Source: Escherichia coli
GTDB taxonomy: Bacteria; Pseudomonadota; Gammaproteobacteria; Enterobacterales; Enterobacteriaceae
Assembly (NCBI RefSeq): GCF_044324785.1
Contig: NZ_CP172127.1
Length of the DNA: 64,000 nt
Strand: one strand, 5' to 3'
Position numbers and translations under genes: made by a program. Of the stretch, positions 7,780 through 11,303 are shown one piece after another. Position 1 is the first letter of the stretch; each line of letters starts with the position of its first letter. Under the pieces are notes generated by a model. It did not search any database and was not told the origin of the DNA. It saw only the letters and a program-made list of their open reading frames with translations.

Positions 7780-10563
7780 ATGATCCAGATTGATCTTCCC
7801 ACGCTGGTAAAACGGCTTAACCTGTTCTCCCGCCAGGCGCTGGAGATGGCCGCCTCTGAATGTATGAGCCAGCAGGCAGCGGAAATTACCGTCAGCCATG
7901 TGCTTATTCAGATGCTCGCCATGCCACGCAGTGACCTGCGGGTTATTACCCGCCAGGGCGATATTGGCATGGAAGAGTTGCGCCAGGCGCTGACGGTGGA
8001 GAACTACACAACTGCCCGTTCTGCGGACAGCTACCCGGCATTTTCCCCGATGCTGGTTGAGTGGCTGAAAGAGGGCTGGCTGCTGGCGTCGGCTGAGATG
8101 CAGCACAGCGAATTGCGTGGCGGCGTGTTGCTGCTGGCCCTGCTGCATTCGCCGCTGCGTTATATACCGCCTGCTGCCGCCCGGCTGTTGACCGGCATTA
8201 ACCGTGACCGTCTGCAACAGGACTTTGTGCAGTGGACACAGGAGTCGGCGGAATCAGTCGTGCCGGATGCAGACGGTAAAGGCGCAGGCACACTGACGGA
8301 CGCTGCTGACACCCTGCTTGCCCGCTACGCCAAAAACATGACCGCAGACGCCCGTAACGGCAGGCTTGACCCGGTACTGTGCCGCGACCACGAAATCGAC
8401 CTGATGATCGACATTCTCTGCCGCCGCCGCAAGAACAACCCGGTGGTGGTGGGCGAAGCAGGCGTGGGTAAAAGTGCCTTAATCGAAGGGCTGGCGCTGC
8501 GCATCGTGGCAGGCCAGGTGCCGGACAAACTGAAAAACACCGATATCATGACCCTTGACCTGGGCGCATTGCAGGCCGGGGCGTCGGTGAAGGGCGAATT
8601 CGAAAAACGCTTCAAGGGGCTGATGGCGGAGGTCATTTCCTCTCCGGTGCCGGTCATTCTGTTTATTGACGAAGCACATACCCTGATTGGCGCGGGCAAC
8701 CAGCAGGGCGGGCTGGATATCTCCAACCTGCTCAAACCGGCGCTGGCGCGCGGCGAGCTGAAAACCATCGCCGCCACCACCTGGAGCGAGTACAAAAAAT
8801 ACTTCGAGAAAGATGCCGCCCTGTCGCGCCGCTTCCAGTTGGTGAAGGTCAGCGAACCCAACGCCGCCGAAGCCACCATTATTCTGCGCGGTCTGTCGGC
8901 GGTCTATGAACAGTCTCACGGCGTGCTGATTGACGATGACGCCTTACAGGCCGCAGCAACACTGAGCGAGCGTTATCTCTCCGGGCGTCAGTTGCCGGAC
9001 AAGGCGATTGATGTACTGGATACGGCCTGCGCCCGTGTGGCCATCAACCTGTCATCGCCACCAAAGCAAATCTCGGCGCTGACCACCCTGAGCCACCAGC
9101 AGGAGGCGGAAATTCGCCAGCTTGAGCGCGAGCTTCGCATCGGGCTGCGTACCGACAACTCACGGATGACGGAGGTGTTGGTGCAGTACGATGAAACGCT
9201 GACGGCGCTGGATGAACTGGAAGCGGCCTGGCATCAGCAGCAGACGCTGGTCCAGGAAATTATCGCGCTGCGCCAGCAGTTACTGGGCGTGGCAGAAGAC
9301 GATGCGGCGTCGTTGCCGGACGCAGATGCCGCGGAGGATACGCCGCCAGAGTCAGAGTCAGAGTCAGAGTCAGAGTCAGAACAGGATAATACCGGTGCCG
9401 TACCGGCTGATGAGGCCGACAGAGAACAGCCGGAAGAGACCGCTGAAACAGTTTCCCCGGTACAGCGGCTGGCCCAGCTCACTGCCGAACTGGACGCCCT
9501 GCATAACGACCGGTTGCTGGTCTCCCCGCACGTCGATAAAAAACAGATTGCGGCGGTGATTGCCGAATGGACCGGCGTACCGCTTAACCGCCTGTCACAG
9601 AATGAAATGTCGGTCATCACCGACCTGCCAAAATGGCTGGGCGACACCATCAAAGGCCAGGACCTGGCGGTTGCGAGCCTGCATAAACACCTGCTGACCG
9701 CACGCGCCGACCTGCGCCGTCCGGGACGCCCGCTTGGCGCGTTCCTGCTGGCTGGCCCCAGCGGCGTGGGTAAAACCGAAACCGTCCTGCAACTGGCGGA
9801 ACTCCTCTACGGCGGTCGCCAGTACCTGACTACCATCAATATGTCCGAGTTTCAGGAGAAGCACACCGTCTCGCGACTGATTGGTTCCCCTCCGGGCTAT
9901 GTCGGCTACGGAGAAGGCGGTGTACTGACCGAAGCGATCCGCCAGAAACCCTACTCGGTGGTGTTGCTCGATGAAGTGGAAAAAGCGCACCCGGATGTGC
10001 TCAACCTGTTCTACCAGGCGTTTGACAAGGGCGAGATGGCAGACGGTGAAGGCCGCCTGATTGACTGTAAAAATATCGTTTTCTTCCTGACCTCCAACCT
10101 TGGCTACCAGGTGATTGTCGAACACGCCGATGACCCGGAAACCATGCAGGAAGCCCTCTATCCGGTGCTGGCGGACTTCTTTAAACCTGCCCTGCTGGCG
10201 CGCATGGAAGTGGTGCCTTACCTGCCGCTGTCGAAAGAGACGCTCGCTACCATTATTGCCGGGAAACTGGCCCGCCTGGATAACGTGCTGCGCAGCCGCT
10301 TTGGCGCGGACGTGATTATTGAGCCGGAAGTGACGGACGAAATCATGAGCCGCGTCACCCGCGCGGAAAACGGCGCGAGGATGCTCGAATCGGTCATCGA
10401 TGGCGACATGCTGCCGCCGCTCTCGCTGCTGCTGTTGCAGAAAATGGCGGCCAACACGGCGATTGCCCGCATCCGCCTGTCGGCGGCAGACGGCGCGTTC
10501 ACGGCAGACGTGGAAGATGCTCAGGACAACGAGTCCGTTACAGAGGATGAAACGGTTTTATGA
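7780..10563 (+). CDS. clpV: T6SS AAA+ ATPase ClpV (TssH)
   Basis: Two Walker A motifs (GEAGVGKS, GPSGVGKT). ATG at 7780 gives the MIQIDLPTLVKRLN N-terminus; the longer ORF from 7666 overlaps tssL and is unlikely. Contains an acidic (SE)5 linker. Confidence 0.93.
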   Translation: MIQIDLPTLVKRLNLFSRQALEMAASECMSQQAAEITVSHVLIQMLAMPRSDLRVITRQGDIGMEELRQALTVENYTTARSADSYPAFSPMLVEWLKEGWLLASAEMQHSELRGGVLLLALLHSPLRYIPPAAARLLTGINRDRLQQDFVQWTQESAESVVPDADGKGAGTLTDAADTLLARYAKNMTADARNGRLDPVLCRDHEIDLMIDILCRRRKNNPVVVGEAGVGKSALIEGLALRIVAGQVPDKLKNTDIMTLDLGALQAGASVKGEFEKRFKGLMAEVISSPVPVILFIDEAHTLIGAGNQQGGLDISNLLKPALARGELKTIAATTWSEYKKYFEKDAALSRRFQLVKVSEPNAAEATIILRGLSAVYEQSHGVLIDDDALQAAATLSERYLSGRQLPDKAIDVLDTACARVAINLSSPPKQISALTTLSHQQEAEIRQLERELRIGLRTDNSRMTEVLVQYDETLTALDELEAAWHQQQTLVQEIIALRQQLLGVAEDDAASLPDADAAEDTPPESESESESESEQDNTGAVPADEADREQPEETAETVSPVQRLAQLTAELDALHNDRLLVSPHVDKKQIAAVIAEWTGVPLNRLSQNEMSVITDLPKWLGDTIKGQDLAVASLHKHLLTARADLRRPGRPLGAFLLAGPSGVGKTETVLQLAELLYGGRQYLTTINMSEFQEKHTVSRLIGSPPGYVGYGEGGVLTEAIRQKPYSVVLLDEVEKAHPDVLNLFYQAFDKGEMADGEGRLIDCKNIVFFLTSNLGYQVIVEHADDPETMQEALYPVLADFFKPALLARMEVVPYLPLSKETLATIIAGKLARLDNVLRSRFGADVIIEPEVTDEIMSRVTRAENGARMLESVIDGDMLPPLSLLLLQKMAANTAIARIRLSAADGAFTADVEDAQDNESVTEDETVL

Positions 10564-11303
10564 GCAGGTTGCGCGTTTTCCGGCAGACAGGATGGTTTAT
10601 CGCGGGCCTGATGGCGGGCTTACCCGCCAGTGCCGCGCCCGCAGAAACATCGTCAATGGCCGGTGTGGCGGTAGCTGTTGCCACGGCGACCCCGCCGGAT
10701 GCGGCAGCCACGTTACAGGCCATGCAGTCCTGTCGGCGGGAGTCCGCGGCGCTGGAGCGGCTTGACTGCTATGACCGCCTGCTGGAACCGCTGTCCCCGT
10801 CAGGGTTTGACGGGGCGCTGGTCAAAGCCGGTTTTGTGGGCGAAGCCTGGACCCGCGCCACAGAGCAGGAAAAACACCGCCAGGGCAACACCACAGAGCT
10901 GCTGGTGACGCAGGTGCCGGGGGAACGCCCGACGGTGGTGATAACCACCCCGGCTATCGGCCATGTTCCGCCACGCCCGGTGCTGATGTTCAGTTGCGTG
11001 GACAATATCACCCGAATGCAGGTGGCGCTGATGCACCCTCTGGATGTCCATGATATCGCCGTCACCCTGAATACCGACAGCCGGGCATTGCGCAGCCACT
11101 GGTTTGTGCGCGAGAACGGCACCCTGCTGGAGTCCAGCCGGGGGCTGTCCGGGATTGATGAAATTAAGCAACTGTTCGGCGCAAAAACGCTGACGGTGGA
11201 TACCGGCGCAGACAATGCCGCCGGAAAGCTGACCTTTAACATTGACGGGCTGGCACAGGTTATTGCGCCGCTACGCGACGCCTGCCACTGGGCGGGAGAA
11301 TAA
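10560..11303 (+). CDS. T6SS-associated periplasmic protein, VasI-like
   Basis: 247 aa with N-terminal signal peptide (…GLMAGLPASAAPA); ATGA overlap with clpV stop; occupies the slot between clpV and tssA that vasI fills in Vibrio cholerae. Confidence 0.65.
   Translation: MSRLRVFRQTGWFIAGLMAGLPASAAPAETSSMAGVAVAVATATPPDAAATLQAMQSCRRESAALERLDCYDRLLEPLSPSGFDGALVKAGFVGEAWTRATEQEKHRQGNTTELLVTQVPGERPTVVITTPAIGHVPPRPVLMFSCVDNITRMQVALMHPLDVHDIAVTLNTDSRALRSHWFVRENGTLLESSRGLSGIDEIKQLFGAKTLTVDTGADNAAGKLTFNIDGLAQVIAPLRDACHWAGE

What the first reader, a model, noticed from the sequence alone, without database searches (positions are those of the whole stretch)
10560..11303. Secreted 247-aa protein of unknown function translationally coupled to clpV
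The start overlaps the clpV stop (ATGA) and the product has a clear N-terminal signal peptide. I assign it to the VasI-like slot by position only. Its role in T6SS is unclear.
Basis: partly seen in the sequence, partly recalled or inferred. Interest (0 to 1): 0.4.

Follow-up and report, generated by a model that had tools for sequence, protein, structure and literature searches.

The report
VasI/TagO accessory gene, E. coli T6SS-2
This is the already-catalogued vasI (tagO) gene of the Escherichia coli type VI secretion cluster T6SS-2, which encodes a small protein exported to the periplasm; the gene call is ordinary, although nobody yet knows what the protein does at the molecular level.

Summary
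A 247-aa ORF lies at 10560-11303 (+). Its ATG overlaps the clpV/tssH stop as ATGA, and it starts with a classical Sec signal peptide (cleavage predicted at ASA|AP after residue 25).

- Pfam PF11319 matches at E = 2.9e-53 over the whole model.
- NCBIfam equivalog TIGR03360 scores 257.6 bits against a cutoff of 124.2.
- All nine invariant family residues are present, including four cysteines.

The window is E. coli chromosome, the aspV-linked T6SS-2 island. RefSeq already annotates this gene as vasI in about half of complete E. coli genomes.

New here is a confident AlphaFold model. It shows a two-helix segment carrying two invariant cysteines, followed by a beta-sandwich. The only meaningful structural neighbours are Bartonella IalB and, second, a chain of the Vibrio flagellar LPHT ring that is probably MotY.

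Published V. cholerae data show that VasI is made at about the copy number of membrane-complex subunits, is retained in the cell, and is needed for full killing but not for Hcp/VgrG export. My best reading, which is inferred, is a periplasmic accessory of the trans-envelope complex rather than an effector.

The family is already known, the mechanism is still open, and interest is low.

The parts
10560..11303 (+). vasI (tagO) coding sequence, 247 aa plus stop
   Evidence: ORF list. PF11319 E = 2.9e-53. TIGR03360 scores 257.6 bits against a cutoff of 124.2. It is 99.7% identical to the annotated vasI of E. coli N3. dN/dS is 0.22-0.29.
10560..10563 (+). ATGA start/stop overlap with tssH (clpV)
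   Evidence: Sequence reading. The same 4-nt overlap is annotated in E. coli N3, O157 and EC69.
10543..10547 (+). GAGGA Shine-Dalgarno-like element inside the clpV 3' end, 12 nt before the ATG
   Evidence: Sequence reading. Function not tested.
10560..10634 (+). Sec-type signal peptide, residues 1-25, with predicted cleavage ASA|AP
   Evidence: n/h/c regions and hydropathy. A comparable N-terminal hydrophobic segment is present in 80 of 82 homologues.
10635..10700 (+). Ala/Val/Thr/Pro-rich linker of low confidence, residues 26-47, longer than in most homologues
   Evidence: pLDDT is 57-60. There are 57 residues before the first invariant Cys, against a family median of 38. Most allelic amino-acid changes fall in the N-terminal half of the protein, which includes this linker.
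10701..10781 (+). N-terminal two-helix segment, residues 48-74, carrying the family motif C-x8-R-L-x-C-[FY]-D (C58, R67, L68, C70, D72)
   Evidence: Helices 48-58 and 64-74 in the model. Invariant columns. This is the only match to the motif in the six-frame translation of the window.
10842..11294 (+). Helix 95-104 plus beta-sandwich core, residues 95-245, with invariant C146, W181, G195, C242 and W244
10911..10920 (-). 10-bp repeat CCGGCACCTG inside vasI, with a second exact copy at 8515-8524 inside tssH
   Evidence: A roughly 2.4 kb tagO-tssH deletion between these repeats is reported in another E. coli strain (PMC10562709). The window copy is intact.
7762..10563 (+). tssH (clpV), the upstream gene of the same operon
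   Evidence: TIGR03345 scores 1123 bits against a cutoff of 885.
11308..12723 (+). tssA (VasJ type), the downstream gene, starting 4 nt after the vasI stop
   Evidence: TIGR03362 scores 491 bits. vasI lies directly upstream of a VasJ-type tssA in loci L002, L003, L004, L010 and L011.

Best explanation
The ORF is vasI (also called tagO), an accessory gene of the E. coli T6SS-2 cluster.

Shown or read directly:
- It is transcribed within the tssB-to-vasL operon.
- It is probably translated in coupling with clpV.
- The product carries a Sec signal peptide.
- The mature protein of about 220 aa has four invariant cysteines, which would allow two disulfides. It consists of a flexible linker, a short two-helix segment and an IalB-like beta-sandwich.

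Taken from published V. cholerae work on the family:
- The protein is made at roughly the copy number of the membrane-complex subunits TssJ, TssL and TssM.
- It stays in the cell while the machine fires.
- It is dispensable for Hcp/VgrG export but needed for full killing of prey.

Inferred mechanism: VasI is a non-enzymatic periplasmic binding module. It associates with the periplasmic part of the trans-envelope complex (TssJ/TssM) and/or the cell wall. It makes firing productive, by stabilising or positioning the channel through the envelope, and does not build the tube or sheath. It is not itself a T6SS-delivered effector.
For: Identity:
- PF11319 and the TIGR03360 equivalog both score far above their cutoffs.
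- All nine invariant residues of an 82-member alignment are present.
- The gene is annotated as vasI in RefSeq and is present at 80% or more of its length in 2726 of 5426 complete E. coli genomes.

Operon context:
- Neighbours are confirmed as tssF, tssG, tagH, tssJ, tssK, tssL, tssH, then vasI, then tssA, tssM and a VasL-like gene.
- No + strand promoter-like or terminator-like site lies between clpV and tssA.
- The order clpV-(vasH)-vasI-tssA(VasJ)-tssM is kept in distant loci with 28-33% identical VasI.

Export:
- The signal peptide is present here and in 80 of 82 homologues.
- Four cysteines are invariant.

Fold:
- The AF2 model has a mean pLDDT of 85.9, with the core at 94-98.
- IalB-domain proteins are periplasmic or inner-membrane envelope proteins.
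- MotY-N is a periplasmic ring-forming scaffold that wedges between FlgI and FlgT.

Behaviour of the family in V. cholerae:
- VasI is present at about 1025 copies per cell. TssJ is at about 1570, TssL about 1100-1290, TssM about 2100-2290, baseplate TssE/F/G 150-590, and Hcp about 38000.
- About 86-88% of VasI remains after the protein-synthesis block, like TssJ and TssM, while the secreted parts decline.
- The deletion keeps Hcp and VgrG-1 secretion but loses amoeba virulence and part of the bacterial killing.
- In every locus read, TssL is the short DotU-only form (253-269 aa) with no peptidoglycan-binding extension. That leaves room for another envelope-coupling factor.
Against: - No binding partner has been shown, here or in the literature searched.
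- Similar copy number to TssJ/L/M is circumstantial.
- All functional data come from V. cholerae. The E. coli protein is a distant relative of the V. cholerae protein and sits in a cluster that lacks vasH.
- Localisation has not been measured for any family member in the papers read.
- Normal Hcp secretion in the V. cholerae mutant shows that the membrane complex works without VasI, so any structural role is auxiliary.
Confidence: 0.5

Rival explanations
1. VasI is a T6SS substrate, either an effector or an extracellular adhesin/translocation helper that acts on the target cell. Zheng, Ho and Mekalanos (2011) proposed this for VCA0118.
For: The V. cholerae deletion has the phenotype expected of a lost effector: secretion of Hcp and VgrG-1 is normal, but killing of amoebae and bacteria is reduced. 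The family is restricted to a subset of T6SS clusters.
Against: - A cleavable Sec signal peptide is conserved in 80 of 82 homologues. Known T6SS cargo is loaded in the cytoplasm onto Hcp, VgrG or PAAR (established knowledge).
- The gene sits between the core genes clpV/vasH and tssA, not next to vgrG, hcp, PAAR or an immunity gene.
- In V. cholerae, VasI abundance stays at about 86-88% after the translation block while Hcp, VgrG2/3 and PAAR fall.
- There is no enzyme-like or toxin-like fold match.
Confidence: 0.08
2. VasI is a periplasmic sensor or regulator that tunes T6SS assembly or firing in response to envelope signals, in the manner of TagR in the Pseudomonas TagQRST-PpkA pathway.
For: In distant clusters vasI abuts or overlaps the sigma-54 activator gene vasH (L002, L005 and L010 overlap; 1-nt gap in L011). 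The cluster carries an FHA protein, TagH. VasI is periplasmic and non-enzymatic by fold. A partial loss of killing is compatible with fewer or mistimed firing events.
Against: - No kinase, phosphatase or transmembrane transducer is encoded in these clusters to carry a periplasmic signal inward.
- Hcp secretion was at wild-type level in the V. cholerae mutant, which argues against a large drop in assembly.
- E. coli keeps vasI although it has lost vasH.
- About 1000 copies per cell is high for a sensor but not excluded.
Confidence: 0.15
3. VasI protects or repairs the producer's own envelope (self-protection, immunity-like or peptidoglycan-handling) when the machine assembles through, or fires across, the cell wall.
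For: The location is periplasmic. The invariant Trp, Arg and Glu residues (W181, W244, R67, with E104, R107, R152, R194 and R239 nearly invariant) would suit glycan binding. These clusters have no peptidoglycan-binding TssL extension and no TagL-type protein.
Against: No growth or lysis defect was reported for the V. cholerae mutant. There is no similarity to known immunity proteins, lysozyme inhibitors or peptidoglycan-binding domains by Pfam or fold.
Confidence: 0.12
4. The ORF is a chance open frame or a decaying pseudogene with no product.
For: The region is GC-rich at 63%, and long antisense ORFs also occur in it. T6SS-2 is often degraded in E. coli.
Against: - It gives a full-length match to two curated family models.
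- dN/dS is 0.22-0.29.
- The gene length of 744 bp is the same in all 13 full-length E. coli alleles listed.
- Transcripts of the VasI gene family were detected in STEC.
- The V. cholerae orthologue has been quantified as protein.
Confidence: 0.01

Closest known systems
VasI / TagO family (Pfam PF11319, formerly DUF3121; NCBIfam TIGR03360 'VI_minor_1'); prototype V. cholerae VCA0118
   Same: - Full-length profile match.
- The same signal peptide.
- The same C-x8-RL-x-C-[FY]-D motif and four invariant cysteines.
- The same position directly upstream of a VasJ-type tssA and tssM.
   Different: - The E. coli, Citrobacter and Salmonella proteins carry a longer Ala/Val/Thr-rich linker. This protein is 247 aa, against a family median of 227.5 aa.
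- The E. coli cluster lacks vasH, so vasI is coupled to clpV.
- No functional data exist for the E. coli protein.
IalB (invasion-associated locus B) of Bartonella, PDB 3dtd; Pfam PF06776 / COG5342
   Different: Identity is 7-13%. None of the 82 VasI homologues hits any Pfam family other than PF11319 below E = 0.007, and PF06776 is not among the 25 families listed. IalB lacks the N-terminal Cys-bearing two-helix segment and has no T6SS link.
MotY N-terminal domain of the Vibrio flagellar T ring (PDB 8z5n chain A, taken to be MotY from its 270-residue length and depositor name)
   Different: VasI has no OmpA-like peptidoglycan-binding C-terminal domain and shows no sequence similarity. Which part of the chain aligned was not reported by the tool, so the assignment to MotY-N is an inference.
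Other periplasmic T6SS accessory proteins (TagL/TagN/TagP peptidoglycan anchors; TagR of Pseudomonas)
   Same: They are accessory, cluster-encoded and act on the periplasmic side. They are found only in some T6SS subtypes.
   Different: There is no sequence or fold relation. VasI has no recognisable peptidoglycan-binding or kinase-activating module.

Membership tests
VasI/TagO (PF11319, TIGR03360) | Score above the curated cutoff of the family models over their full length | tested here: met
   PF11319 scores 180.7 bits against a cutoff of 26.5, over model positions 2-184 of 184. The TIGR03360 equivalog scores 257.6 bits against a cutoff of 124.2, over model positions 1-187 of 187.
VasI/TagO (PF11319, TIGR03360) | Invariant residues of the family: four Cys, the R-L-x-C-[FY]-D motif, W181, G195 and W244 | tested here: met
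   In the 82-sequence alignment A1, C58, R67, C70, D72, C146, W181, G195, C242 and W244 are invariant, and all are present in the window protein.
VasI/TagO (PF11319, TIGR03360) | N-terminal export signal | tested here: met
   The n/h/c regions and an AXA site were found by inspection. 80 of 82 homologues have a hydrophobic N-terminal segment before the first invariant Cys. No dedicated predictor was available.
VasI/TagO (PF11319, TIGR03360) | Encoded inside a T6SS cluster, between clpV/vasH and a VasJ-type tssA followed by tssM | tested here: met
   Window neighbours were confirmed by NCBIfam. The same order is seen in L002, L004, L010 and L011. L003 shows vasI-tssA. L005 shows vasH-vasI followed by tssM after an 840-nt stretch with no called gene.
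VasI/TagO (PF11319, TIGR03360) | Phenotype: dispensable for Hcp secretion, required for full T6SS-dependent killing | not testable with these tools
   Known only for V. cholerae VCA0118 (PMC3166118).
IalB family (PF06776) | Sequence match to the family profile | tested here: not met
   PF06776 is not among the 25 families listed for the 82 A1 members at E up to 1 (35 families matched; 25 shown; no family other than PF11319 scored below E = 0.007). Profile A1 finds no PDB sequence, including 3dtd, at E up to 10.
IalB family (PF06776) | Shared beta-sandwich fold | tested here: met
MotY (flagellar T-ring protein) | N-terminal ring-forming domain plus C-terminal OmpA-like peptidoglycan-binding domain | tested here: not met
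T6SS cargo effector | No Sec signal, cytoplasmic loading on Hcp/VgrG/PAAR, usually adjacent to vgrG/hcp/PAAR and an immunity gene, and depleted from cells as the machine fires | tested here: not met
   A Sec signal is present. The flanking genes are tssH and tssA. V. cholerae VasI is retained after the translation block.
Outer-membrane lipoprotein (TssJ-like) | Lipobox L-x-x-C at the end of the signal peptide | tested here: not met
   The first Cys is residue 58 and there is no lipobox. Only 1 of 82 homologues has a lipobox-like site.

The most novel reading that the evidence does not exclude
VasI may be the missing envelope-coupling subunit of the VasH/VasJ-type T6SS. In this reading it is a periplasmic collar or adaptor that oligomerises on the TssJ-TssM channel, and possibly also on the predicted periplasmic C-terminal domain of VasL or on peptidoglycan. 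That would be analogous to how MotY-N builds the flagellar T ring. It would also explain why these clusters manage without a peptidoglycan-binding TssL or TagL, and why the mutant still exports Hcp but kills poorly.
Probability: 0.2. Interest if true: 0.55.

Novelty: already known. Interest (0 to 1): 0.12.

Why it matters
For annotation it changes nothing. The gene is a routine, correctly callable vasI/tagO in a well-known E. coli island.

The wider family is one of the few conserved T6SS-cluster genes that still has no mechanism. The fold link to IalB and to the probable MotY-N chain, the two conserved candidate disulfides and the membrane-complex-like copy number together give a concrete hypothesis that is cheap to test: a periplasmic adaptor rather than an effector. 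Confirming it would revise the 2011 label 'putative effector' and add a component to models of the V. cholerae-type membrane complex.

Tried and rejected
- **N-terminal motif as a mobile module.** I asked whether the C-x8-RL-x-C-[FY]-D segment also occurs on other proteins. A 31-column profile (A2) found nothing real in PDB sequences. The large protein search first failed on parameter limits. With a 47-aa profile (A3) it returned only 6 short VasI fragments from 293 candidates, so the question stays open. The motif occurs only once in the six-frame translation of the window.
- **Structure library.** The afdb50 library was not available, so no comparison with predicted structures of annotated families could be made.
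- **Sequence link to a solved structure.** Neither the single sequence nor profile A1 found one. The only hit was a spurious one to FOXA1 at E = 0.29.
- **Complex modelling.** I considered modelling VasI with TssJ or TssM by linker fusion. I did not run it, because the structure tool returns no coordinates or interface scores, so the result could not have been read.
- **Wide synteny survey.** I considered a genome-contig scan. I judged it not decisive for the mechanism and used seven cheap exact-protein look-ups instead. One of them, L009, was too short to be informative.
- **Tat signal and lipoprotein.** Both were rejected on sequence.
- **Literature.** Searches for later functional work on VasI, TagO or DUF3121 found only genome-annotation mentions.
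Full report
**Observation.** The window holds an ATG-initiated ORF at 10560-11303 on the + strand that encodes 247 aa. 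The upstream gene ends ...ACG GTT TTA TGA, and the new ORF starts at the ATG inside TTATGA, so the two share ATGA at 10560-10563. The upstream gene is tssH/clpV: the TIGR03345 equivalog scores 1123 bits, with the true start at 7762. The N-terminus reads MSRLRVFRQ / TGWFIAGLMAGL / PASA|AP. That is a basic n-region, a 12-residue hydrophobic core and an AXA signal-peptidase I site. There is no lipobox and no twin-arginine motif.

The ORF is a real gene and not an accident of 63% GC DNA. GC by codon position is 66/51/73%. dN/dS is 0.22 against the O157:H7 allele and 0.29 against the EC69 allele. The 204-aa and 123-aa antisense ORFs in the same stretch have no comparable support.

**Identity.** Profile searches make that an assignment by sequence. 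Pfam PF11319 (VasI; earlier DUF3121) matches at E = 2.9e-53 across residues 58-244 and the whole model. The NCBIfam equivalog TIGR03360 scores 257.6 bits against a curated cutoff of 124.2. The closest proteins in a 5.8-billion-sequence collection are E. coli, E. albertii, Citrobacter and Salmonella proteins named VasI or TagO, at 65-94% identity.

At the DNA level the region is 99.7-99.8% identical to E. coli strain N3, where PGAP annotates it as vasI. 2726 of 5426 complete E. coli genomes carry at least 80% of the gene. The first 25 kb of the window match the E. coli chromosome throughout.

**Context.** The gene order here is tssF, tssG, tagH, tssJ, tssK, tssL, tssH, vasI, tssA, tssM and a VasL-like gene, all confirmed against curated models. 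After these come hcp, an AT-rich cargo segment and tRNA-Asp (aspV) at 21106-21182, and then dnaQ and rnhA. This is the aspV-linked island that the E. coli literature calls T6SS-2.

Gene junctions across the cluster are overlaps or gaps of a few bases. No + strand promoter-like or terminator-like site lies between clpV and tssA. The ATGA overlap is therefore typical of this operon. The nearest Shine-Dalgarno-like element, GAGGA at 10543-10547, sits 12 nt upstream of the ATG. Coupling to clpV translation is a reasonable inference but is not shown.

**The family.** An exhaustive HMMER scan of 1.84 billion cluster representatives found only 316 relatives at E <= 1e-3, so the family is small. I aligned 82 full-length members, which are 24-87% identical to the query. 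Nine columns are invariant: C58, R67, C70, D72, C146, W181, G195, C242 and W244. The first four of these form a fixed-spacing motif, C-x8-R-L-x-C-[FY]-D. 80 of the 82 members have a hydrophobic signal segment ahead of the first cysteine, and only one has a lipobox-like site. Four invariant cysteines in an exported protein suggest two disulfides. I could not read the pairing because model coordinates are not returned.

In seven look-ups of distant members (28-33% identity), every informative locus placed vasI after clpV and the sigma-54 activator vasH. In all but one (L005) it lies directly before a tssA of the ImpA_N+VasJ type, followed by tssM. The accompanying TssL is always the short DotU-only form. 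E. coli T6SS-2 differs in having no vasH, which is why vasI abuts clpV here.

**Structure.** AlphaFold2 with the 82-sequence alignment gave a mean pLDDT of 85.9 and a pTM of 0.70.
- Residues 1-47 (signal peptide and Ala/Val/Thr-rich linker) are of low confidence.
- Helices 48-58 and 64-74 carry C58 and C70.
- From about residue 100 to 245, most of helix 95-104 and a beta-sandwich are modelled at pLDDT 94-98.

I take 8z5n chain A to be MotY from its depositor name and its 270 residues, and the aligned part to be MotY-N. The tool does not show the aligned range, so this is inference. There is no sequence-level link. PF11319 is the only Pfam family with a credible match in the 82 members, and the family profile finds no PDB sequence at all. 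VasI therefore resembles IalB in fold but is not a member of the IalB family.

What the neighbours say is limited but consistent. IalB-domain proteins are periplasmic or inner-membrane envelope proteins with no known activity. MotY-N is a periplasmic scaffold that polymerises head-to-tail and wedges between FlgI and FlgT. Nothing in the fold points to an enzyme or a toxin.

**Published function.** The only genetics I found is for V. cholerae VCA0118. An in-frame deletion left Hcp expression, Hcp secretion and VgrG-1 secretion at wild-type level. [quoted passage not shown] The authors labelled it a putative effector or adhesin (PMC3166118).

Targeted proteomics in V. cholerae 2740-80 gives the following copies per cell (PMC6565705):

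| Protein | Copies per cell |
|---|---|
| VasI | about 1025 |
| TssJ | about 1570 |
| TssL | about 1100-1290 |
| TssM | about 2100-2290 |
| TssE/F/G (baseplate) | 150-590 |
| Hcp | about 38000 |

In STEC, transcripts of the VasI gene family were detected and co-varied with those of other T6SS genes. Searches for later mechanistic work on VasI, TagO or DUF3121 returned only annotation-level mentions.

**Interpretation.** Shown: this is vasI/tagO, a conserved, expressed-in-relatives, Sec-signal-bearing accessory gene of a T6SS operon. Inferred: the mature protein is periplasmic, disulfide-stabilised and non-catalytic. It works as a binding module on the periplasmic face of the machine (TssJ/TssM, perhaps the cell wall) and improves productive delivery rather than assembly.

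The effector reading is disfavoured for three reasons: the conserved Sec signal, the position between core genes with no adjacent immunity gene, and retention in firing cells. A sensor/regulator role and a self-protection role remain possible, and I rate them at 0.15 and 0.12.

One further candidate partner emerged. The VasL-like protein has an N-terminal ImpA_N domain, one predicted transmembrane segment (residues 269-290 of the ORF) and a C-terminal VasL domain, which would then face the periplasm. However, VasL is absent next to vasI in L002 and L004, and its deletion has no phenotype in V. cholerae. It therefore cannot be the sole partner.

**Verdict.** The gene is already known and already annotated in public records, so interest is low. 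The residual value is a testable structural hypothesis for a family whose mechanism is still open.

Noticed in passing
window 8515-8524 and 10911-10920 (- strand): An exact 10-bp direct repeat, CCGGCACCTG, sits once in tssH and once in vasI, 2396 bp apart. A published STEC strain has a roughly 2.4 kb tagO-tssH deletion between exactly this repeat (PMC10562709). The window copy is undeleted. With one mismatch allowed, the motif is also over-represented in the window: 11 matches against 4.7 expected.
   Followed up: partly
proteins P0027-P0029, P0046, P0053, P0055, P0056, P0100; hit H35: Some E. coli genomes encode chimeric proteins that join most of VasI to pieces of IcmF_C, VasL or VasJ domains. 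One genome keeps only a 55-bp vasI remnant. This suggests frequent internal deletions of T6SS-2.
   Followed up: no
window 7762-11303 compared with loci L002, L004, L005, L010, L011: E. coli T6SS-2 has no sigma-54 activator gene vasH between clpV and vasI, although every distant VasI locus examined has one. How this cluster is regulated is therefore likely to differ.
   Followed up: partly
window 17300-21000: The tail of the island is sharply AT-rich (31-37% GC, against about 55% for the T6SS core). It holds a second hcp (17653-18132), a 312-aa ORF with no Pfam hit (18111-19049; split or pseudogenised in strain N3, where part of it is called a peptidoglycan-binding protein), a weak LprI-like ORF with a hydrophobic N-terminus (19046-19501) and a 266-aa ORF on the - strand (19979-20779). 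It looks like an Hcp-linked effector/immunity cargo module.
   Followed up: partly
window 16277-17626: The VasL-like (TagA-like) protein has an ImpA_N domain, a single predicted transmembrane segment (residues 269-290 of the ORF) and a C-terminal VasL domain. That topology would put the VasL domain in the periplasm.
   Followed up: partly
window 11308-12723: tssA is intact here but is annotated as frameshifted in the nearest complete genome (E. coli N3). The VasL-domain gene is also frameshifted in N3.
   Followed up: no
window 7900-11300: The 3' two-thirds of clpV together with vasI form the GC peak of the island (60-63%). The clpV linker encodes an acidic stretch rich in Ser-Glu repeats (…PPESESESESESEQDN…).
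   Followed up: no
window 21106-21182 and 29329-34552: tRNA-Asp (aspV) marks the island border. A complete rRNA operon lies on the - strand (16S, tRNA-Ile, tRNA-Ala, 23S, 5S, tRNA-Asp), with an Rfam StyR-44 match in the spacer upstream of the 23S gene. These are ordinary E. coli chromosome features.
   Followed up: yes
EC69 allele (L008) residues 78-85 compared with the window: A block of eight consecutive amino-acid changes (LSPSGFDG to EQAGFGGA) lies in the linker after the Cys-bearing two-helix segment. It may reflect a pair of compensating frameshifts or a recombination patch.
   Followed up: no
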